Assembly (NCBI GenBank): GCA_040390045.1
Contig: JAZJZC010000004.1
Coordinates: forward strand, 67,157 to 131,156
Direction: 5' to 3'
Length of the DNA stretch: 64,000 nucleotides
Origin: Patescibacteria group bacterium
Lineage (GTDB): Bacteria > Patescibacteriota > Minisyncoccia > Phycocordibacterales > SIBU01
Shown here: positions 14,766-62,755 of the stretch, piece by piece
How the letters are laid out: each line of letters begins with the position of its first letter
How positions within the stretch are numbered: the first letter of the stretch is position 1
Position numbers and translations under genes: made by a program
The notes under the pieces: generated by a model
The model's database searches: none
Told to the model about the DNA's origin: nothing
Seen by the model: the letters and a program-made list of their open reading frames with translations, nothing else

Positions 14766-15443
14766 GTGGAAACTGAAAAAAAAGTTACATCGCACGCAAT
14801 CGGAACGATTTTCGTTAAGGTTCGTGCTGACGGTGAGGTTGAGGCTGCCGCGATGCATTACACAAAACGTGAGAAGAGAACCAAGCAACTCCGTACGACC
14901 TTGAGGCTCCCGATGGGTAAAGGGAAGAAGGTAGAGAGGGAATCTCTAACCGAGACTCAGGTCCGTGAGGCGGTTCAGGAATGCGCAAAAATACCTGCTG
15001 ACTTTGATTATGAGTTCGAGTTCCGCGGTCTCGTGTATTATGCCGTGGTGCCTGACGATGACAACGGCGACAGCGAACTGCATCTGAAAGCCTTTATGGT
15101 TGCGCGGCTGAAAAAGGGTGAGTTGCGGGATTACCAGGCCAACGAACAGGAGTACGATCCTGACACCGGTAAACCTATCCCTGACGAGGTTGAAATTCTT
15201 GGGCCTTTGAAGTGGTACGAGATTCGCGAGGTTCTCAACGAAATGGCAAGACAGGGAAACGGCCTGTATGTTCACACTACTGCTGTTCTTGCTACACTCG
15301 TTGCTCTTGCGGGAAAGTACCCGAAGGTTGAAGCTCGTTACGGTGGCATCGTTAATCGGCCTGACGTGCAGCAGCGAGTCGCCATTTCAGCAAATTACAG
15401 GGACGAGGTCAAAGCCTACGTCGGCTCGCTCCAGGCCACTTGA
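14766..15443 (+). CDS. hypothetical protein (GTG start, locally GC-rich)
   Basis: Long ORF. AAAGGA lies 5 nt before GTG. GC clearly above neighbours. No recognisable domain. Confidence 0.5.
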   Translation: METEKKVTSHAIGTIFVKVRADGEVEAAAMHYTKREKRTKQLRTTLRLPMGKGKKVERESLTETQVREAVQECAKIPADFDYEFEFRGLVYYAVVPDDDNGDSELHLKAFMVARLKKGELRDYQANEQEYDPDTGKPIPDEVEILGPLKWYEIREVLNEMARQGNGLYVHTTAVLATLVALAGKYPKVEARYGGIVNRPDVQQRVAISANYRDEVKAYVGSLQAT

Positions 15444-15494: not shown

Positions 15495-15529
15495 AATGTT
15501 GCCCCGCCCGCAGCGGGCGGGGCAACATT
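15495..15529. repeat. GC-rich hairpin ccccgcccg-cag-cgggcgggg (member of a repeat family)
   Basis: Perfect hairpin aatgttgccccgcccgcagcgggcggggcaacatt. Related cores at 53278-53319 and 62620-62690. Confidence 0.6.
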
Positions 15530-15573
15530 CTGGGAGATTGCAAATTTTCTAATAAGTGTTAAGCTTTCAAACC

Positions 15574-15798
15574 ATGGTAGTACGAATGCGCGCCAATCGG
15601 TCTCATAGGGATAATCGACGAAGTCACTTCGCGTTAGGTGAACCTCGATTTTCAACGTGTAAAGATTGCGGAGCATCGCATTTGCGACATCGAGTGTGTA
15701 CCACCTGTGGTAAGTACAAAGGCATGCAAGTGCTCAACGTACATGCCAAAGTAGAGAAGAAAGCGAAGAAGTTGAAAGAGAAAGCGGCAGTAAAATAA
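15574..15798 (+). CDS. rpmF: 50S ribosomal protein L32
   Basis: MVVRMRANRSHRDNRRSHFAL plus CxxC..CxxC zinc ribbon. Confidence 0.85.
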   Translation: MVVRMRANRSHRDNRRSHFALGEPRFSTCKDCGASHLRHRVCTTCGKYKGMQVLNVHAKVEKKAKKLKEKAAVK

Positions 15799-15910
15799 GC
15801 ACGAAATTTTAAGCACGAAATCCGAAAGAATATCTAAATTAGAATTTAAAAATTTTAATTTGGGATTTGTTTCGAGTTTCGAATTTGAGATTTCGGATTT
15901 GTCTTCATTT

Positions 15911-16813
15911 ATGGCTAACAGGCACCTTGCAAGATCGACAGTTCTACAAACCCTCTTCGAGTGGGATTTTAATGGTCAGCGAAAGACTGACGATGTAGAA
16001 ACGATTCTCAAGAGAGATATCGCCGAATTTGCTCCTGGCGTTAGTGATTCGTCGTTCATGACTGAGCTCCTCCGTTCTATTTGCGACAAGATGTCGGACA
16101 TTGATACGATTATTGAAAAGGCTGCTCCAGATTGGCCAATCAATAAAATTTCTATTATCGATCGCAACATCTTGCGCATCGGTCTTTACGAATTGCTTTT
16201 TGCGGACAAAACTGAAGTGCCGGAAAAAGTGGCGATCAATGAAGCGATTGAGTTGGCGAAAACATTCGGCGGCGAAAATAGCGGCAAATTTGTAAACGGC
16301 GTTCTTGGTTCAGTCTACAAAGAACTTGGAGAGCCCGGCAAAGATGCTGTTTCCCAGAAGAGTAAACGCAAAGCTGAAGTTCCGTACGAAAAAATGCCTA
16401 TCCAAAAATTGGGAGGCGCAGTGGTCTATGCTAAGGATGGTGGTGAAATTTATCTCGCGCTTGTCCACGATATTTTCGGTCATTGGACGCTCTCAAAAGG
16501 AAAAATTGAAGTTGATGAGGACGTTAAGCAAGGTACGACGAGAGAAATGAAGGAAGAACTTGGCCTCGATGTTTCGATTCAAACAGATCTTGGAAAAAAT
16601 GAATACATCGCATCCGATCCAACTCTTGGTAAAATTCGCAAACAAGTAAATTACTTTTTGGCAGAAGCCAAGTATGAAAATTTAACTCTTGGTACTTCAG
16701 GTGGACTCGACGACGCACGATGGTACAAAATGGCGGATATTGTTTCTCTTAATTTGTACAATGACATTTTGCCAATCGTCACCAAAGCGGTCAATATATT
16801 ACTTAAAAAGTAG
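15911..16813 (+). CDS. nusB: NusB antitermination factor fused to C-terminal NUDIX hydrolase domain
   Basis: NusB motifs DRNILRIGLYELLF and INEAIELAKTFGGENSGKFVNGVLG. Canonical Nudix box GKIEVDEDVKQGTTREMKEELGL. Confidence 0.8.
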   Translation: MANRHLARSTVLQTLFEWDFNGQRKTDDVETILKRDIAEFAPGVSDSSFMTELLRSICDKMSDIDTIIEKAAPDWPINKISIIDRNILRIGLYELLFADKTEVPEKVAINEAIELAKTFGGENSGKFVNGVLGSVYKELGEPGKDAVSQKSKRKAEVPYEKMPIQKLGGAVVYAKDGGEIYLALVHDIFGHWTLSKGKIEVDEDVKQGTTREMKEELGLDVSIQTDLGKNEYIASDPTLGKIRKQVNYFLAEAKYENLTLGTSGGLDDARWYKMADIVSLNLYNDILPIVTKAVNILLKK

Positions 16814-16894
16814 ATAGTCGGTAGTCAGTAGTTTGTAGAAAATCCGTTTTTCCTTACTACCAACTACCCACTACAATACTAACCTACTACTCCA
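16814..16894. repeat. GTAG/CTAC-rich palindromic intergenic repeat
   Basis: tagatagtcggtagtcagtagtttgtag ... ctaccaactacccactac forms a long imperfect inverted repeat. Same family at 287-320 and 28817-28935. Confidence 0.6.
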
Positions 16895-17584
16895 ATGGAT
16901 TTTTCAAAATTCGAAGACCAACTCGGTATTTATTTCAAAAACAAAAGTCTTTTACAGACGGCTTTTACGCATAGATCATATATCAACGAAAACCGAAAAG
17001 GTGCGCTTGAACACAACGAACGCCTGGAGTTTTTGGGCGACGCTGTCTTAGAGTTGATCGCGACGCATTTTTTGTATAACAAATATCCTGACAAAGCAGA
17101 AGGGGATTTGACGTCCTACCGTTCTGCGCTTGTTAACGCCGTGACACTTTCTGAAATTGCCACGAAACTCGGCATGAATGAATTTCTTCTTTTATCAAAA
17201 GGGGAAACCAAGGATACTGGCCGCGCTCGACAATATATTTTGGCAAACACTATGGAATCTTTTATTGGCGCCCTGTTTCTCGATCAAGGATATGACGCGG
17301 CACAAGTATTTATAAAACAATACATTCTCTCGCTCATCGACAACATTGTTGCCAAAAAAAGTTGGCTTGACGCAAAAAGTTTTTTTCAGGAAAAAGCTCA
17401 GGAAGAAGAGGGAATTACTCCGTCTTATGTAGTACTTAAAGAAACTGGTCCCGATCACGATAAACAATTTACGGTTGCAGTAGAAATTGGTCGCGAACGT
17501 GTTGCCACAGGCGAGGGAAAATCAAAACAAGAAGCTGAACAGAGTGCGGCACAGGAGGGACTGAAAGCCAAGAGTTGGAATTAG
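16895..17584 (+). CDS. rnc: ribonuclease III
   Basis: ERLEFLGDAVLE signature and a C-terminal dsRBD. Confidence 0.9.
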   Translation: MDFSKFEDQLGIYFKNKSLLQTAFTHRSYINENRKGALEHNERLEFLGDAVLELIATHFLYNKYPDKAEGDLTSYRSALVNAVTLSEIATKLGMNEFLLLSKGETKDTGRARQYILANTMESFIGALFLDQGYDAAQVFIKQYILSLIDNIVAKKSWLDAKSFFQEKAQEEEGITPSYVVLKETGPDHDKQFTVAVEIGRERVATGEGKSKQEAEQSAAQEGLKAKSWN

Positions 17585-17643: not shown

Positions 17644-18156
17644 TTATACTGTAGCGCGAGGAATTGACGTCGTTAATCGACGTTTTCCGTCAAGCATCAG
17701 TCCATAGGCGAAATTACAAAGTGGAATTTTTTCAAAACCCGCGGTATTGTCCCAATTAGTAATTAGCCAGCCTTTGGGCAGAGTCTCGCCAATTAACAGC
17801 TCTCTTTTTTGAGGTGTGCCGAAAGGTCGATCTGGAACTTCAAAAATTTCGGTTTTTGGGCATGCCGTAGGAATGTGAAGAAGCGGATAATTTGGCGCAA
17901 GCTCAAGTCGCCGCAAACACCTTTTGTCTACCGTTGCGGTTGTTCCCGGAAATCTGATCTGGACAGTACTGTGGCCAGGAAAAGCCTCCAAAACGGTTGT
18001 GAGCAAATTCTTAAAGCCCGTCGGTTCGGTGTCATTGAAAATTACAATGTCACCTTTGTGAAGAGCCGATCGGCTTTTGTGCAACCCTAATCTCCAGAGT
18101 AAAAGTAGAATTACGGTGGTTTCGACGAGAATCAATATCGATGAAAGATTTTTCAT
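17644..18156 (-). CDS. hypothetical membrane-anchored protein
   Basis: ATG at 18154-18156, N-terminal TM helix, no recognised motif. Confidence 0.4.
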   Translation of the reverse strand: MKNLSSILILVETTVILLLLWRLGLHKSRSALHKGDIVIFNDTEPTGFKNLLTTVLEAFPGHSTVQIRFPGTTATVDKRCLRRLELAPNYPLLHIPTACPKTEIFEVPDRPFGTPQKRELLIGETLPKGWLITNWDNTAGFEKIPLCNFAYGLMLDGKRRLTTSIPRATV

Positions 18157-18256
18157 TGCATGGTACGTTTTTCTGCTTTCATACTATCTGTTAAAGCTTC
18201 TATGTCAACACAAATTAGAATTCCCTTTATTTTTAATAAAAGCTATAATTCTCCTC

Positions 18257-20548
18257 ATGTATCTGAAGGGCTTAGAAATCTCTGGCTTTAAATCTTTTGC
18301 CAAAAAAACGGTATTGCAATTTAGCACGCCGATTACTGCTGTGGTTGGACCGAATGGTTCCGGTAAATCAAATACTGCCGAGGCTTTTCGTTTTGTGCTT
18401 GGCGAACAATCGATCAAATCGATGCGCGGAAAGCGCACGGAAGATTTAATTTGGAATGGGGGTGGCGATACTGCCCGCGCCAACCGCGCTTCGGTAAAAG
18501 TAGTTTTCGACAATCATCAGAGAATGCTTAATGTTGATTTTGATGAAGTATCCCTTGAGCGTGTGATTTATCGTGACTCTTCCAGTGAATATTTTATCAA
18601 TGGTACTCAGGTGAGGCTCAAAGACATTATCGAACTTTTGGCCGGCGCTCACATTGGCTCATCGGGACATCATATTATTTCTCAAGGTGAAGCTGATAAA
18701 ATTCTAAATGCCAACAGTAAGGAACGTCGTGACATGCTTGAAGACGCGCTTGGTTTAAAAATTTATCAATATAAGCGTTTGGAAAGCGAGCGGAAGTTGG
18801 AAAAAACTGATGAAAACATGAAGTCGGTTGAATCTTTGCGAAAGGAGATTGCGCCGCATTTGAAATTTCTAAAAAAGCAGGTTGAGAAAGTGGAAAAAAC
18901 TCTCGAGTTGAAGGAGGAATTACGAACAGTTTCTAAGAATTATTTTAAACGTGAAGAGGTATATATTACATTTCAAAGACAAGCGATTGAAAGTGATAGA
19001 AAAAAACCGACGGATGACCTTGCGCAACTGCAAAGTGATCTTGCTAAAGCAAAGGCGGTTTTGGAAATTTCAGCTGGGGTGAATGCCAAAAATAACGAAA
19101 CAATTAAATTAGAAAGTGATTTGAGCGCGGTGAGAAATGAAAAAGATCGGTTAGCGCGAGAGCTCGGCCGAATCGAAGGTGCAATTGGTAGTGAAGAAAG
19201 AATTGTTCGACGTGAGAAGGAAATGATGGCTCAAGAGGGGAATCAACAGGTTTTATTAAAAGACGTAGAAGCTGTAAGGACTACGATTGAACAGAAAATA
19301 GTAGAGGTGGAAAAATTTAAAGACGAAAATTCTTTGCAGAATTTTTTTGATTTCATTCGAGCTACGTTTGATGAATTTATAAAACGCCACAAGCGTGGAG
19401 ATACAACACAACTGCTCAATCAATCACTTTCAGAAATTGAACGATTAAAATCTGAACGCCAAACTTGTGAGGCTGCACTCGCTGATTCTAATAAAAAAGA
19501 GGAAGATTTGCGCGCCACGCTTTTGCATATGCAGAAATTGATTGAAAAAGATAAGGATTCAACTCGAGATGCTGAGCGAGAGATGTTTAGGATTATGAAC
19601 GAGGAAAATCTTGTTCGCAATATTTTGGCGTCATTAAAAGCCCGCGAGGAAAGGTTGAATCTTCTCGATGAAAGCTTCAAGAGAGATGTTCAGGAGGTAA
19701 TGATGTTGGTTGGGCGTGAGGTTTACAATTACACAAGTGAAGTAATTCTCGCGGAGAACGGAGCCGCGATTTCTGCGGCAGAAATCGCGGCTGAAGAACG
19801 TGTCCACCAAGAAGAGCGTCGTCGCTCAATGGAAAAAATGAAAATCCGTATCGAGGACGCAGGAACTGGTGGTGGCGAAGATGTTCTCAAGGAATACAAC
19901 GAAACACTCGAACGCGATCAATTTTTGGAACGAGAATTGGCAGACTTAGCTCAGTCGGCACTATCTCTTAAAAATATTATTGTTGAACTGGAGGAAAAGC
20001 TCGACACCGAATTCCGTGAGGGGGTGTTGAAAATTAATACTCAATTTCAAAATTTCTTTAATTTAATGTTCGGAGGTGGATCCGCATCACTTCAAGTGGT
20101 ACGCGAAACAAAAAAGAAAAAGAGTGATACTGATTTGGAAATTGACATGGATGCAGTACCAACTGAAGACGGCGAAGAAGACATGGAGGAAAAAGAGGGA
20201 ATTGAAATTGATGTCAGTTTGCCTCGTAAAAAAATCAAAGGCTTGATGATGCTCTCCGGTGGTGAACGTGCGCTTACTTCGATTGCGCTTTTGTTTGCCA
20301 TTTCTCAGGTCAATCCGCCGCCATTTGTCATTCTCGATGAGACTGACGCGGCACTCGACGAAGCCAACTCAAAAAAATACGGCGATATGATCGAAAATCT
20401 CTCCAAACTTTCACAACTGATTTTAATTACGCACAATCGCGAAACCATGTCCCGCGCAGGAGTACTCTACGGCGTCACCATGGGTTCTGGTGGAGTTTCT
20501 AAATTGCTCTCGATTGCATTTGAAGAAGCTGTTGCGGTGGCAAAATAG
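18257..20548 (+). CDS. smc: SMC-family chromosome segregation ATPase (short form, 763 aa)
   Basis: Walker A GPNGSGKSN, coiled coils, signature LSGGERALTSIALLFA, Walker B ILDETDAALD. Start taken at MYLKGLEISGF. The upstream track extension would overlap the convergent gene. Confidence 0.8.
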   Translation: MYLKGLEISGFKSFAKKTVLQFSTPITAVVGPNGSGKSNTAEAFRFVLGEQSIKSMRGKRTEDLIWNGGGDTARANRASVKVVFDNHQRMLNVDFDEVSLERVIYRDSSSEYFINGTQVRLKDIIELLAGAHIGSSGHHIISQGEADKILNANSKERRDMLEDALGLKIYQYKRLESERKLEKTDENMKSVESLRKEIAPHLKFLKKQVEKVEKTLELKEELRTVSKNYFKREEVYITFQRQAIESDRKKPTDDLAQLQSDLAKAKAVLEISAGVNAKNNETIKLESDLSAVRNEKDRLARELGRIEGAIGSEERIVRREKEMMAQEGNQQVLLKDVEAVRTTIEQKIVEVEKFKDENSLQNFFDFIRATFDEFIKRHKRGDTTQLLNQSLSEIERLKSERQTCEAALADSNKKEEDLRATLLHMQKLIEKDKDSTRDAEREMFRIMNEENLVRNILASLKAREERLNLLDESFKRDVQEVMMLVGREVYNYTSEVILAENGAAISAAEIAAEERVHQEERRRSMEKMKIRIEDAGTGGGEDVLKEYNETLERDQFLERELADLAQSALSLKNIIVELEEKLDTEFREGVLKINTQFQNFFNLMFGGGSASLQVVRETKKKKSDTDLEIDMDAVPTEDGEEDMEEKEGIEIDVSLPRKKIKGLMMLSGGERALTSIALLFAISQVNPPPFVILDETDAALDEANSKKYGDMIENLSKLSQLILITHNRETMSRAGVLYGVTMGSGGVSKLLSIAFEEAVAVAK

Positions 20549-23925: not shown

Positions 23926-23955
23926 CCGGTAGATTCAAGAATAAAACCAAAAAAA

Positions 23956-23991
23956 ATACCGCCGCGACTCCGTCGCGGCGGTATTTTTTTT
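23956..23991 (+). terminator. rho-independent terminator
   Basis: aataccgccgcgac-tcc-gtcgcggcggtatt followed by T8. Confidence 0.8.
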
Positions 23992-24054
23992 GACAAAAAC
24001 AACTGATATGTTTAGTATTCGCGCTAGTTCGGTACAAATTCAAAAATTTAATGC

Positions 24055-28816: not shown

Positions 28817-28935
28817 GGGAGAGAGTAGATAGTCGGTAGATGGTAGTAGGTAGACCAGATTAAAGAAACCCCCGGCGCGCTTTGCGCGCCGGGGGTTTCA
28901 ACAAGTCTACCCACTACCCACTAATTACTACTTTC
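28817..28935. repeat. GTAG/CTAC palindromic repeat enclosing a terminator hairpin
   Basis: tagatagtcggtagatggtagtaggtagac ... terminator ... gtctacccactacccactaattactac. Inner hairpin aaacccccggcgcgc-tttg-cgcgccgggggttt at 28866-28898. Confidence 0.7.
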
Positions 28936-59485: not shown

Positions 59486-59526
59486 ATAACTAAAGCCCCG
59501 CGCCAAAGGCGCGGGGCTTTAGTTAT
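59486..59526. terminator. strong bidirectional terminator hairpin
   Basis: ataactaaagccccgcgcc-aaa-ggcgcggggctttagttat. Confidence 0.75.
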
Positions 59527-62690: not shown

Positions 62691-62755
62691 GCAGTTACAA
62701 TAAAACAAAAGAAAATCCCCCGATTCGCTCCGCGAATCGGGGGATTTTCAGTATT

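What the first reader, a model, noticed from the sequence alone, without database searches (positions are those of the whole stretch)
15911..16813. NusB antitermination factor fused to a NUDIX hydrolase domain
The N-terminal 140 aa are unmistakably NusB. After a Lys-rich linker comes a complete Nudix fold with a canonical Nudix box (GX5EX7REUXEEXGU). I am not aware of NusB-Nudix as a standard architecture. It would couple an rRNA antitermination factor to a pyrophosphohydrolase, which might act in RNA 5'-end decapping or nucleotide-signal hydrolysis.
Basis: seen in the sequence. Interest (0 to 1): 0.55.

Follow-up and report, generated by a model that had tools for sequence, protein, structure and literature searches.

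The report
NusB fused to a Nudix domain
This is a real gene, shared by a whole lineage of ultra-small bacteria (Paceibacteria), in which the rRNA transcription factor NusB carries an extra domain derived from Ap4A-cleaving enzymes; many relatives have lost a catalytic residue from that domain while keeping its binding pocket, so its conserved job is probably binding rather than cutting.

Summary
Window 15911-16813 (+) is one uninterrupted 300-aa ORF with a NusB domain (aa 1-139; above the TIGR01951 cutoff), a 24-aa linker, and a Nudix domain (aa 164-299) with a canonical Nudix box.

It is not a frameshift artefact. Hundreds of independent assemblies and at least 595 species-representative genomes, all Patescibacteria/Paceibacteria, encode the same fusion, always within rpmF - nusB::nudix - rnc (RNase III) - smc. 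Databases call it plain "NusB", and no paper found describes the architecture.

The Nudix half belongs to the Ap4A-hydrolase branch (Aquifex aq_158, TM 0.88).

New result: across the family, the Nudix-box glutamate E212 (the "RE" Glu) is lost in about 40-50% of fusions, through at least 22 independent switches. Stand-alone relatives keep the box in 19 of 23 cases. In 117 further fusions the pocket residues W192, T193, K196, E216, Y232, K244, W271 and Y283 are invariant. The domain evolves only about 16% faster after the loss.

The conserved role is therefore probably binding a nucleotide or 5'-polyphosphate next to BoxA-bound rRNA leader. The window copy may still hydrolyse.

This is a new variant of a known kind, of moderate interest.

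The parts
15911..16813 (+). nusB::nudix CDS (300 aa plus stop)
   Evidence: Uninterrupted ORF. Both Pfam domains are above their cutoffs. A 100% identical protein is in NCBI as 'MAG: transcription antitermination factor NusB [Patescibacteria group bacterium]'.
15911..16327 (+). NusB domain, aa 1-139 (all-helical)
   Evidence: TIGR01951 128.5 bits, cutoff 88.35. phmmer to T. maritima NusB 1tzt E 2e-24. Foldseek TM 0.84-0.87 to NusB structures, including the Aquifex NusB-NusE-BoxA complex 3r2c. F127 (nt 16289-16291) aligns with Aquifex F122, which stacks on BoxA U8, and D84 aligns with Aquifex E81. Both are invariant in 117/117 fusions.
16328..16399 (+). Interdomain linker, aa 140-163 (GEPGKD...KSKRK...PYEKMPIQKL)
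   Evidence: AF2 pLDDT is below 50 for aa 140-154. Even so, G140-E141-P142-G143-K144 is invariant among close relatives and common in the broader set (G140 110/117, P142 93/117). It is shortened in the deep branch (P0248).
16400..16807 (+). Nudix domain, aa 164-299, Ap4A-hydrolase type
   Evidence: PF00293 E 5.5e-11. Best PDB sequence hits are CT771, C. elegans Ap4A hydrolase, NUDT2, Ndx1 and Aquifex Ap4A hydrolase. Foldseek: 3i7u TM 0.88, rmsd 2.1. The HWTxxKG motif (H191-G197) aligns with HWTPPKG of C. elegans Ap4A hydrolase.
16499..16567 (+). Nudix box GX5EX7REUXEEXGU (G197-L219); E212 = nt 16544-16546, E216 = nt 16556-16558
   Evidence: Read directly from the sequence. Coordinates were computed. 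It is canonical here. E212 is lost in 55/119 close relatives and 48/117 broader relatives. E216 is invariant.
15556..15798 (+). rpmF (ribosomal protein L32), upstream gene of the conserved cluster
   Evidence: PF01783 E 8.8e-14. Immediately upstream of the fusion in 74/80 related loci and in the deep-branch loci.
16895..17584 (+). rnc (RNase III), downstream gene of the conserved cluster
   Evidence: Ribonuclease_3 plus dsrm domains. Present downstream in 80/80 related loci and adjacent in 73. The gap to the fusion gene is only 1-15 nt in deep-branch relatives.
15796..15901 (+). Long imperfect hairpin in the rpmF-nusB spacer
   Evidence: RNA MFE -34.4 kcal/mol, z -5.44, 0/200 shuffles as stable. 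Similar stable folds occur in 19/62 related spacers of at least 50 nt.
16809..16880 (+). Hairpin in the nusB::nudix-rnc spacer
   Evidence: RNA MFE -23.1 kcal/mol, z -3.53, 0/200 shuffles as stable. Seen in 12/31 related spacers of at least 50 nt. Absent where the spacer is only a few nt.
15495..15529 (.). Perfect 17-bp GC-rich hairpin upstream of rpmF (probable terminator of the upstream unit, so the likely 5' boundary of the rpmF-nusB::nudix-rnc unit)
   Evidence: Inverted repeat I6, 100% complementary, 1-nt loop. No sigma-70-like site on the + strand between rpmF and the start of rnc.

Best explanation
The gene encodes the functional NusB of a Paceibacteria (Patescibacteria/CPR) genome. It is most likely co-transcribed with rpmF and with rnc (RNase III).

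The N-terminal half is a genuine NusB. By homology it should pair with S10/NusE and bind the BoxA element of the nascent rRNA leader, seeding the rRNA antitermination and RNA-chaperone complex.

The C-terminal half descends from an Ap4A/Np4-type Nudix hydrolase. It hangs on a short tether that leaves helix alpha7, which is the BoxA-binding helix. Its conserved, selected property is its nucleotide/polyphosphate-binding pocket, not catalysis.

I infer that it binds a polyphosphate-bearing nucleotide next to BoxA. The most plausible ligand is the 5'-terminal ppp- or Np4-capped end of the rRNA leader; a free dinucleoside polyphosphate is the alternative. Either would fix or sense the transcript's 5' end within the complex that later presents the RNase III site.

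In lineages with a complete Nudix box, including this window's protein, the domain probably still hydrolyses that ligand (5' deprotection or Ap4A cleavage). In the 40-50% of lineages lacking E212 it would act as a slow or dead 'reader'.

Shown: the architecture, its lineage-wide conservation, the synteny, subfamily membership, the pattern of box decay, and retention of the pocket. Inferred: the ligand's identity, its position relative to RNA, and any hydrolysis.
For: NusB identity:
- TIGR01951 is above cutoff.
- TM 0.84-0.87 to NusB structures.
- The BoxA/NusE contact residues of PMC3177189 map to residues that are invariant or nearly so: F127, D84, R85, N86, N129 and G130 in 117/117; F16 as F/Y in 117/117.
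- There is no second NusB or related Nudix gene in the 64-kb window.

Lineage-wide fusion:
- (at least 595 species genomes).

Operon with RNase III:
- rnc lies downstream in 80/80 loci.
- The gaps are 1-15 nt in the deepest branches.
- No + strand promoter-like site lies between rpmF and the start of rnc.

Ap4A-hydrolase ancestry:
-.

Binding rather than catalysis:
- Canonical box in 19/23 stand-alone relatives versus 5/33 diverse fusion representatives (Fisher p = 5e-7).
- Canonical box in 64/119 close relatives and 60/117 broader relatives.
- At least 22 independent switches between canonical and degenerate box.
- The Nudix/NusB divergence ratio rises only from 1.00 to 1.16 after loss.
- D187, W192, T193, K196, E216, Y232, K244, W271 and Y283 are invariant in 117/117 and nearly so in the most divergent degenerate forms.
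- K196 and K244 align with C. elegans Ap4A hydrolase K36 and K83.
- A degenerate deep-branch member still folds as an Ap4A-hydrolase-like Nudix domain: pLDDT 92, TM 0.86.

Geometry:
- BoxA U8 contacts Aa F122 and C6 contacts Aa S128 on alpha7, and G1 contacts the N-terminus (PMC3177189). The tether therefore leaves NusB beside the 5' part of BoxA.

Precedents:
- RppH removes Np4 caps and pyrophosphate from RNA 5' ends (PMC8833179).
- CF Im25/NUDT21 is an inactive Nudix protein of an RNA-processing factor that binds Ap4A (PMC7705103).
Against: - There is no direct evidence for any ligand, for RNA binding by the Nudix half, or for hydrolysis.
- E216, which corresponds to RppH E57, the residue mutated to make dead RppH (PMC8833179), is invariant. 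E203 and R211 are mostly kept in the broader set. Residual or altered catalysis may therefore be the selected function, and some Nudix enzymes work with atypical boxes.
- AF2 gives no confident interdomain packing (pTM 0.52-0.59), so the position of the Nudix domain relative to BoxA is not established.
- No rRNA leader or BoxA could be examined. There is no rRNA in the window or in any of the 85 loci, and there is no BoxA enrichment in the window.
- Whether these genomes lack RppH, ApaH, YqeK or SuhB was not testable.
Confidence: 0.4

Rival explanations
1. Tethered enzyme. The conserved function is catalysis. NusB delivers an active RppH/Ap4A-hydrolase-like Nudix enzyme to nascent rRNA, where it removes pyrophosphate or an Np4/NAD-type cap from the leader's 5' end, or destroys a local nucleotide signal such as Ap4A or ppGpp.
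For: - The window protein has a perfect Nudix box.
- E216 (= RppH E57) is invariant, and E215 is E or D in 114/117.
- The nearest structures are active Ap4A/ApnA hydrolases.
- RppH-type enzymes act on RNA 5' ends (PMC8833179, PMC7044304).
Against: - E212 is replaced by K, V, A or I in 55/119 and 48/117 fusions, with at least 22 independent switches between canonical and degenerate box. In some clades E203 and R211 are lost too.
- Stand-alone relatives keep the box in 19 of 23 cases.
- From my own knowledge, mutating the equivalent Glu in MutT, RppH or Ap4A hydrolases lowers kcat by orders of magnitude.
- RppH NCBIfam models score far below cutoff (20.7 against 118).
- RNase III cleavage already yields 5'-monophosphate rRNA ends, so a 5' pyrophosphohydrolase is not obviously needed for rRNA maturation. 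This point is inference.
Confidence: 0.25
2. Ligand sensor. The Nudix domain is an allosteric effector-binding domain, as in NrtR or TRPM2 NUDT9-H. It senses a free nucleotide alarmone (Ap4A/ApnA, ADP-ribose or ppGpp) and modulates NusB-S10-BoxA assembly, tying rRNA synthesis to physiological state in organisms with very few regulators.
For: - The pocket is conserved while catalytic residues decay.
- The NrtR Nudix domain is among the top structural matches.
- A relative of the same Nudix subfamily is fused to sigma-70 region 4 plus DnaA-C helix-turn-helix domains (P0207), which is a regulator-like architecture.
Against: - No predicted interdomain interface exists through which allostery could act (pTM 0.52-0.59; the linker is disordered in the window protein).
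- No ligand has been identified.
- About half the family keeps a complete box, which would destroy the signal.
Confidence: 0.17
3. Structural subunit. The Nudix domain is a protein- or RNA-contacting building block of the Paceibacteria rRNA antitermination complex. It would fill the role that the co-opted enzyme SuhB plays in E. coli, or dock RNase III, and its nucleotide pocket would be irrelevant.
For: - SuhB, an inositol monophosphatase, is an integral non-catalytic-type part of the E. coli complex next to NusB/E/A (PMC8632103, PMC6614801).
- The linker motif GEPGKD is strongly conserved despite predicted disorder.
- The operon with rnc is tight.
Against: - The residues that stay invariant are the ones that align with the Ap4A-hydrolase phosphate and base pocket (W192, K196, K244, Y232, E216). 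That would be unexpected if the pocket had no role.
- The absence of SuhB in these genomes was not tested.
Confidence: 0.13
4. Artefact or meaningless fusion. A sequencing or assembly frameshift joined two adjacent genes, or two unrelated housekeeping genes were fused with no functional coupling.
For: Nothing supports the artefact reading. For the 'uncoupled' version, AF2 sees two independent domains.
Against: - The same continuous ORF is present in hundreds of independent assemblies and in at least 595 species genomes.
- Identity in the Nudix half falls as low as 26%, so the fusion is old and has been maintained.
- The Nudix subfamily with E <= 1e-10 is tiny (147 representatives out of 1.84 billion) and about a third of its best 150 representatives are full-length NusB fusions.
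- The constraints on the domain changed after fusion.
Confidence: 0.05

Closest known systems
Bacterial NusB (TIGR01951 / PF01029; e.g. T. maritima 1TZT, Aquifex 3R2C, E. coli 3D3B)
   Same: Same fold, an HMM score above the equivalog cutoff, the same BoxA-contacting helix alpha7 (KFVNGVLG with the stacking Phe), an acidic residue at the Aquifex E81 position, and an aromatic residue at the NusE-interface position.
   Different: It carries about 160 extra C-terminal residues (a conserved linker plus a Nudix domain). It sits in an rpmF-nusB-rnc-smc cluster.
Nudix Ap4A/ApnA hydrolases (Aquifex aq_158 3I7U, C. elegans 1KTG, human NUDT2 3U53, Chlamydia CT771 4ILQ, T. thermophilus Ndx1 1VC8, mycobacterial MutT1/Rv2985)
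   Same: These are the best sequence and structure matches (TM up to 0.88). They share the HWTxxKG motif that runs into the Nudix box, and the conserved Lys and Tyr residues of the phosphate/base pocket.
   Different: Here the domain is fused to NusB. Only 21-25% of residues are identical. Across the fusion family the RE glutamate is frequently lost, whereas stand-alone relatives keep it.
RppH (RNA pyrophosphohydrolase / Np4 decapping Nudix enzyme)
   Same: It is a Nudix enzyme that the literature groups with the asymmetric Ap4A hydrolases, and it acts on RNA 5' ends (PMC7705103, PMC8833179).
   Different: The window protein is not an RppH orthologue. The NCBIfam RppH models score 14.6-20.7 bits against cutoffs of 116-139. 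RppH is stand-alone and keeps its full box.
RsmB/Sun (NusB-like N-terminal domain fused to an rRNA m5C methyltransferase)
   Same: It sets a precedent for a NusB-fold RNA-binding module placed N-terminal to an enzyme domain that acts on rRNA. The RsmB models hit the NusB half weakly.
   Different: The window protein scores 59 bits against a cutoff of 319, so it is not a member. The partner domain is a different enzyme. The NusB half here is a true NusB equivalog, not a NusB-like domain.
Non-catalytic Nudix domains: CF Im25/NUDT21, NrtR, TRPM2 NUDT9-H
   Same: In these proteins a Nudix fold with a degenerate box is used as a ligand- or RNA-binding module inside an RNA-processing factor, a transcription regulator or an ion channel. 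CF Im25 binds Ap4A (PMC7705103). The NrtR Nudix domain is among the top structural hits. TRPM2 NUDT9-H is cited from PMC7555694, of which only the title and abstract were seen, plus my own knowledge.
   Different: The partner domains differ. Here decay is partial and varies by lineage: E216 is always kept, and about half the family, including the window copy, is fully canonical.
SuhB in the E. coli rRNA antitermination complex (6TQN/6TQO)
   Same: It is a small-molecule phosphatase-fold protein recruited as a component of the NusB/E/A/G complex at the RNA exit channel (PMC8632103).
   Different: The fold is unrelated (inositol monophosphatase) and it is a separate polypeptide. Any functional equivalence is speculation.

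Membership tests
NusB (TIGR01951 equivalog / PF01029) | Profile score above the curated cutoff | tested here: met
   TIGR01951 128.5 bits against 88.35; PF01029 124.4 against 23.1.
NusB (TIGR01951 equivalog / PF01029) | All-helical NusB fold | tested here: met
   The AF2 model has helices over aa 2-139. Foldseek TM 0.84 to 1tzv and 0.87 to 3r2c.
NusB (TIGR01951 equivalog / PF01029) | BoxA-contact residues on alpha7 and alpha4 (Aquifex F122, E81) and an aromatic residue at the NusE-interface position (E. coli Y18) | tested here: met
   These map to F127, D84 and F16 through the alignment and the residue roles in PMC3177189. F127 and D84 are invariant in 117/117; F16 is F or Y in 117/117.
NusB (TIGR01951 equivalog / PF01029) | Binds S10/NusE and a BoxA element in the rRNA leader | not testable with these tools
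   No rRNA gene is present in the window or in any of the 85 loci. The BoxA consensus is not enriched in the window (4 hits against 9.6 expected).
NusB (TIGR01951 equivalog / PF01029) | It is the genome's only NusB, i.e. the orthologue rather than a paralogue | tested here: inconclusive
   No second NusB was found in the six-frame translation of the 64-kb window. NCBI and JGI name the fusion as NusB.
Nudix hydrolase superfamily (PF00293) | Nudix alpha/beta/alpha fold | tested here: met
   PF00293 43.1 bits against 21.1. TM 0.88 and rmsd 2.1 A to 3i7u.
Nudix hydrolase superfamily (PF00293) | Nudix box GX5EX7REUXEEXGU complete | tested here: met
   Complete in the window protein (G197...L219). 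Across the family it is complete in only 64/119, 60/117 and 5/33 of the fusion sets.
Nudix hydrolase superfamily (PF00293) | Mg/Mn-dependent hydrolysis of a nucleoside diphosphate-X substrate | not testable with these tools
   This needs an enzyme assay.
Nudix Ap4A hydrolase subfamily (NUDT2 / aq_158 / CT771 type) | Closest sequence and structure neighbours are Ap4A/ApnA hydrolases | tested here: met
   phmmer top hits are CT771, 1kt9, 3u53, 1vc8 and 3i7u. Foldseek top hits are 3i7u, 9cxx, 5gg5, 1ktg and 4mpo.
Nudix Ap4A hydrolase subfamily (NUDT2 / aq_158 / CT771 type) | HWTxxKG motif running into the box, plus a conserved Lys on the following strand (C. elegans H31, W32, K36, K83) | tested here: met
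   H191-W192-T193-L-S-K196-G197 and K244 align with these residues. W192, T193, K196 and K244 are invariant in 117/117. The residue roles come from my own knowledge of the 1KTG literature.
Nudix Ap4A hydrolase subfamily (NUDT2 / aq_158 / CT771 type) | Asymmetric cleavage of Ap4A | not testable with these tools
   This needs an enzyme assay.
RppH (RNA pyrophosphohydrolase equivalogs NF001936/37/38) | Profile score above the curated cutoff | tested here: not met
   Scores of 20.7, 14.6 and 16.1 bits against cutoffs of 118, 139 and 116.
RsmB (NusB-like domain plus m5C methyltransferase) | Full-length profile match including the methyltransferase domain | tested here: not met
   NF011494 scores 59 bits against 319, and only aa 7-150 match.

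The most novel reading that the evidence does not exclude
In Paceibacteria, NusB has acquired a Nudix-derived 'reader' of the 5'-polyphosphate or Np4 cap. [quoted passage not shown] It would make a closed loop that chaperones rRNA folding and presents the RNase III site, taking over part of the role that SuhB and other accessory factors play in E. coli. Hydrolysis would be only an optional release step, kept in some lineages such as this one. This would be the first transcription elongation factor that recognises the chemical state of a transcript's 5' end.
Probability: 0.15. Interest if true: 0.8.

Novelty: new variant of a known kind. Interest (0 to 1): 0.55.

Why it matters
NusB has been regarded as a single-domain adaptor of about 140 aa that is structurally uniform across bacteria. 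Here an entire, species-rich lineage of reduced-genome bacteria has replaced it with a two-domain protein. The second domain comes from the enzyme family that handles Ap4A and RNA 5' ends, and the gene sits in a tight operon with RNase III.

The repeated loss of one catalytic glutamate, with the binding pocket kept intact, is a natural experiment. It shows an enzyme domain being converted into a binding module inside the transcription and rRNA-processing machinery.

If the ligand is the transcript's 5' end or an Np4 cap or alarmone, this would link 5'-end chemistry or alarmone signalling directly to rRNA antitermination. It would also show how CPR bacteria, which lack many accessory factors, build ribosomes.

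On the practical side, public annotation labels these proteins simply 'NusB' and sometimes misses the Nudix half altogether (P0167 and P0248).

Tried and rejected
1. Frameshift or assembly artefact: rejected. The ORF is continuous, and the same fusion occurs in hundreds of assemblies and in at least 595 species genomes.

2. Literature. 'NusB + Nudix', 'Patescibacteria + NusB' and 'Nudix + candidate phyla radiation' returned nothing relevant.

3. BoxA and the rRNA leader. Rfam found only two tRNAs in the window. A BoxA consensus search gave 4 hits against 9.6 expected. No 16S or 23S motifs occur in any of the 85 fetched loci. BoxA pairing could therefore not be tested.

4. Taxonomy of the stand-alone Nudix relatives and of the deep-branch fusions through cluster look-ups. 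Almost no names came back. One stand-alone cluster is from Bacillota.

5. A fold search against AFDB50 was not possible because that library was unavailable.

6. Is the domain simply decaying into junk in the lineages that lost the box? Rejected. The Nudix/NusB divergence ratio is only 1.16 against 1.00, the pocket residues are invariant, and a degenerate member folds confidently (pLDDT 92).

7. A rigid two-domain unit is not supported. pTM is 0.52-0.59 and linker confidence is low. Without PAE or coordinates this could not be examined further.

8. RppH orthology: rejected on NCBIfam scores.

9. Are the spacer hairpins a conserved regulatory element? They are only partly recurrent, in about a third of relatives with long spacers, and absent in the deep branches. 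They are not treated as part of the core feature.
Full report

Yes. Window 15911-16813 (+) is a single uninterrupted ORF of 300 codons that starts MANRHL.

- Pfam finds NusB (PF01029, aa 7-137, E 5.3e-36) and NUDIX (PF00293, aa 170-282, E 5.5e-11). Both are well above their gathering scores.
- NCBIfam's nusB equivalog TIGR01951 scores 128.5 bits against a cutoff of 88.35.
- The Nudix box G197-x5-E203-x7-R211-E212-M-K-E215-E216-L-G218-L219 (nt 16499-16567) is exactly canonical.

**2. Is it an artefact?**

No.

- A search of 5.8 billion clusters returned the identical protein from an NCBI metagenome-assembled genome (MAG), named 'transcription antitermination factor NusB [Patescibacteria group bacterium]'.
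- Its top 120 hits (68-100% identity; NCBI, JGI, ENA and Logan assemblies) are 272-317 aa long, 118 of them 296-317 aa. Every one carries both Pfam domains.
All 80 listed loci come from Patescibacteria/Parcubacteria: Taylor-, Kaiser-, Nomura-, Adler-, Yonath- and Lloydbacteria, and Paceibacterota.
- An exhaustive HMMER search with the Nudix half alone against 1.84 billion representatives found only 147 proteins at E <= 1e-10. About a third of the best 150 are full-length NusB+Nudix fusions, with Nudix identity down to 26%.
- A profile search seeded with the deepest-branching fusions recovered another 117 full-length members, 35-69% identical to the window protein. Where named, they are again Paceibacterota/Parcubacteria.

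The fusion is therefore old, maintained, and the normal form of NusB in this lineage. No second NusB and no related Nudix gene occurs in the 64-kb window.

**3. Anatomy**

- The AF2 model (pLDDT 81.7) shows an all-helical domain (aa 2-139), a low-confidence segment (aa 140-154) and an alpha/beta/alpha Nudix domain (aa 164-299). pTM is 0.52, so no confident interdomain packing is predicted.
- Foldseek matches the N-terminal half to NusB structures: T. maritima 1tzv at TM 0.84, and the Aquifex NusB-NusE-BoxA complex 3r2c at TM 0.87.
- Foldseek matches the C-terminal half best to Ap4A/ApnA hydrolases: Aquifex aq_158 3i7u (TM 0.88, rmsd 2.1 A), M. tuberculosis Rv2985, MutT1, C. elegans 1ktg, Chlamydia CT771 and T. 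thermophilus Ndx1.
- Sequence search of the PDB gives the same neighbours.
- The motif H191-W192-T193-L-S-K196-G197 that leads into the box aligns with HWTPPKG of C. elegans Ap4A hydrolase, and K244 aligns with its K83.
- RppH equivalog models score far below their cutoffs, so this is not an RppH orthologue.

**4. The NusB half looks fully functional**

I used the alignment to Aquifex NusB and the residue roles reported for the NusB-NusE-BoxA crystal structure (PMC3177189).

| Reference residue | Role | Residue here |
|---|---|---|
| Aquifex F122 | stacks on BoxA U8 | F127 |
| Aquifex E81 | reads U8 | D84 |
| E. coli Y18 | NusE interface; site of the nusB5 mutation | F16 |

- In 117 diverse fusions, D84, R85, N86, F127, N129 and G130 are invariant, and F16 is F or Y throughout.
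- In that structure BoxA runs from the NusB N-terminus (G1), past S128 (C6), to F122 (U8) on helix alpha7. The tether that leaves the C-terminal end of alpha7 therefore emerges beside the 5' part of BoxA. This is an inference from the listed contacts.

**5. Genomic context**

- The local gene order in the window is dnaE(-), rnhB, an unannotated 225-aa ORF, rpmF, nusB::nudix, rnc, a doubtful 170-aa ORF(-), smc, rnr(-).
- Across the 80 related loci, rnc lies downstream in 80/80 (adjacent in 73) and rpmF lies upstream in 75/80. The modal order is dnaE- rnhB+ rpmF+ fusion+ rnc+ smc+ rnr-.
- In three deep-branch genomes the same order (rnhB-)rpmF-fusion-rnc-smc-SET holds, with only 1-15 nt between the fusion gene and rnc.
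- In the window, a perfect 17-bp hairpin at 15495-15529 precedes rpmF. No sigma-70-like site lies on the + strand between rpmF and the start of rnc.
- rpmF-nusB::nudix-rnc is therefore probably one transcription unit. The persistent pairing with RNase III, the enzyme that excises pre-rRNAs, fits a role in rRNA synthesis and processing.

**6. The key new result: catalytic residues decay while the pocket is retained**

I extracted the seven box positions (G197, E203, R211, E212, E215, E216, G218) from all full-length family members.

| Set | Canonical box | Source |
|---|---|---|
| Complete stand-alone relatives of this Nudix subfamily | 19/23 | |
| Diverse fusion representatives (50% identity clusters) | 5/33 | |
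| Close relatives of the window protein | 64/119 | |
| Second, broader set of fusions | 60/117 | |

- Stand-alone relatives against diverse fusion representatives gives Fisher p = 5e-7.
- The commonest change is E212 to K, V, A or I. Some clades also lose E203 and R211, for example G-V-F-K-E-E-G and G-I-A-K-E-E-G.
- Proteins 81% identical to the window protein (P0020, P0022) already read GERKEEG.
- On a neighbour-joining tree of 152 fusions, Fitch parsimony needs at least 22 switches between canonical and degenerate box. Label shuffles give a mean of 50.5 and a minimum of 39. The switches are recurrent but clustered in clades.
- The domain does not decay afterwards. The Nudix/NusB divergence ratio is 1.00 for canonical pairs and 1.16 for degenerate pairs among close relatives.
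- D187, W192, T193, K196, E216, Y232, K244, W271 and Y283 are invariant in 117/117. They are nearly invariant even in the 28 most divergent degenerate representatives.
- A deep-branch member whose Nudix domain Pfam no longer detects (P0248, box GDEVKEG) is predicted with pLDDT 92, and its C-terminal half still matches Aquifex Ap4A hydrolase best at TM 0.86.
- E216 corresponds to RppH E57, the residue mutated to make catalytically dead RppH (PMC8833179), and it is never lost. E212 corresponds to MutT/RppH E53. From my own knowledge, mutating it lowers activity by orders of magnitude.

My reading is that selection maintains a nucleotide/polyphosphate-binding pocket, and that full catalytic competence is optional.

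**7. Most likely mechanism**

*Shown:*
- a genuine NusB, in an operon with RNase III;
- it carries an Ap4A-hydrolase-derived domain whose pocket is conserved across the family, while its chemistry is not.

*Established elsewhere:*
- NusB-S10 binds BoxA;
- the rRNA antitermination complex fixes the 5' region of the nascent rRNA at NusB, NusE, NusA and SuhB;
- this topology helps form the RNase III site (PMC8632103);
- Nudix enzymes of this branch cleave Ap4A and deprotect RNA 5' ends (PMC7705103, PMC8833179, PMC7044304);
- inactive Nudix folds serve as RNA- or ligand-binding modules. CF Im25 is one (PMC7705103), and the NrtR Nudix domain is among the structural hits.

*Inferred:*
- the tethered domain binds a polyphosphate-bearing nucleotide beside BoxA;
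- the most plausible ligand is the ppp- or Np4-capped 5' terminus of the leader, and a free ApnA is the alternative;
- lineages with a full box, including this one, probably also hydrolyse it.

I put about 0.4 on this. The rivals are a conserved catalytic role (0.25), an alarmone sensor (0.17), a purely structural subunit (0.13), and an artefact or uncoupled fusion (0.05).

**8. Comparison with what is known**

- The protein is a member of the NusB family. All sequence and structural criteria tested were met. RNA and S10 binding could not be tested here.
- It is also a member of the Nudix superfamily, in the Ap4A-hydrolase branch.
- It is not RppH and not RsmB.
- The nearest conceptual parallels are RsmB (a NusB-like domain plus an rRNA enzyme), CF Im25, NrtR and TRPM2 NUDT9-H (non-catalytic Nudix modules), and SuhB (an enzyme fold recruited into the rRNA antitermination complex).
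- No paper describing a NusB-Nudix protein was found. Databases label it simply NusB.

**9. Novelty and score**

- Both domains are known, and the sequences are already public.
- What is new is the recognition that a whole lineage uses a two-domain NusB, together with the evidence that its Nudix module is shifting from enzyme to binder.
- I rate it a new variant of a known kind, with interest of about 0.55.
- A transcription or RNA-processing specialist would find it notable and directly testable. The mechanism is still inferred.

**10. Limits**

- No rRNA leader or BoxA was available.
- Whole-genome presence or absence of a second nusB, suhB, rppH, apaH or yqeK could not be checked.
- AF2 output came without PAE or coordinates.
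- The neighbour-joining/Fitch count of switches is approximate.
- The z-scores for spacer hairpins in relatives used mononucleotide shuffles.

Noticed in passing
window 15796-15901 and 16809-16880: Both spacers flanking nusB::nudix fold into long imperfect hairpins: -34.4 kcal/mol (z -5.4) and -23.1 kcal/mol (z -3.5). Comparable stable folds occur in 19/62 and 12/31 related spacers of at least 50 nt, but not in deep-branch relatives, where the genes nearly abut. They could be RNase III processing or autoregulation sites next to rnc, terminators or attenuators, or inserted palindromic elements.
   Followed up: partly
window 14766-15443 (+): A 225-aa ORF with no Pfam match lies between rnhB and rpmF. 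It is present in only 3 of 80 related loci. Its GC content is about 51%, against about 42% in the flanking sequence. It looks like a lineage-specific insertion into an otherwise conserved cluster.
   Followed up: partly
P0207 (379 aa, ENA metagenome contig; not in the window): The same narrow Nudix subfamily also occurs fused to sigma-70 region 4 plus DnaA C-terminal helix-turn-helix domains. This suggests the Nudix module has been attached more than once to nucleic-acid-binding domains. P0242 (577 aa) carries an extra N-terminal region of about 316 aa before NusB+Nudix, and P0211 has tandem Nudix domains.
   Followed up: no
window, e.g. 334-374, 15495-15529, 23948-23992, 28865-28899, 59486-59526, 62711-62749: There are many perfect 16-21-bp GC-rich inverted repeats with 1-4-nt loops. 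The stem cores are related (CCCCGCGCC/GGCGCGGGG in two of them), and some are flanked by A or T runs on both sides (e.g. 23948-23992 and 334-374). They look like bidirectional intrinsic terminators.
   Followed up: no
L081-L084 (deep-branch relatives), downstream of smc: A small SET-domain protein gene (135-140 aa) directly follows smc in all three deep-branch contexts examined. I did not check whether the window has an equivalent.
   Followed up: no
window 17644-18156 (-) versus 18077-20548 (+): A 170-aa minus-strand ORF with no Pfam hit lies between rnc and smc. It overlaps the listed TTG start of the smc ORF by 80 nt. The SMC_N match begins only at residue 62 of that ORF, so the true smc start is probably further downstream. 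It is unclear whether the minus-strand ORF is real.
   Followed up: no
P0167 and P0248 (database annotation): For the most degenerate fusions, the precomputed Pfam annotation lists only NusB and misses the Nudix half, although the fold is predicted with pLDDT 92. Domain-architecture counts based on Pfam will therefore under-report this fusion.
   Followed up: yes
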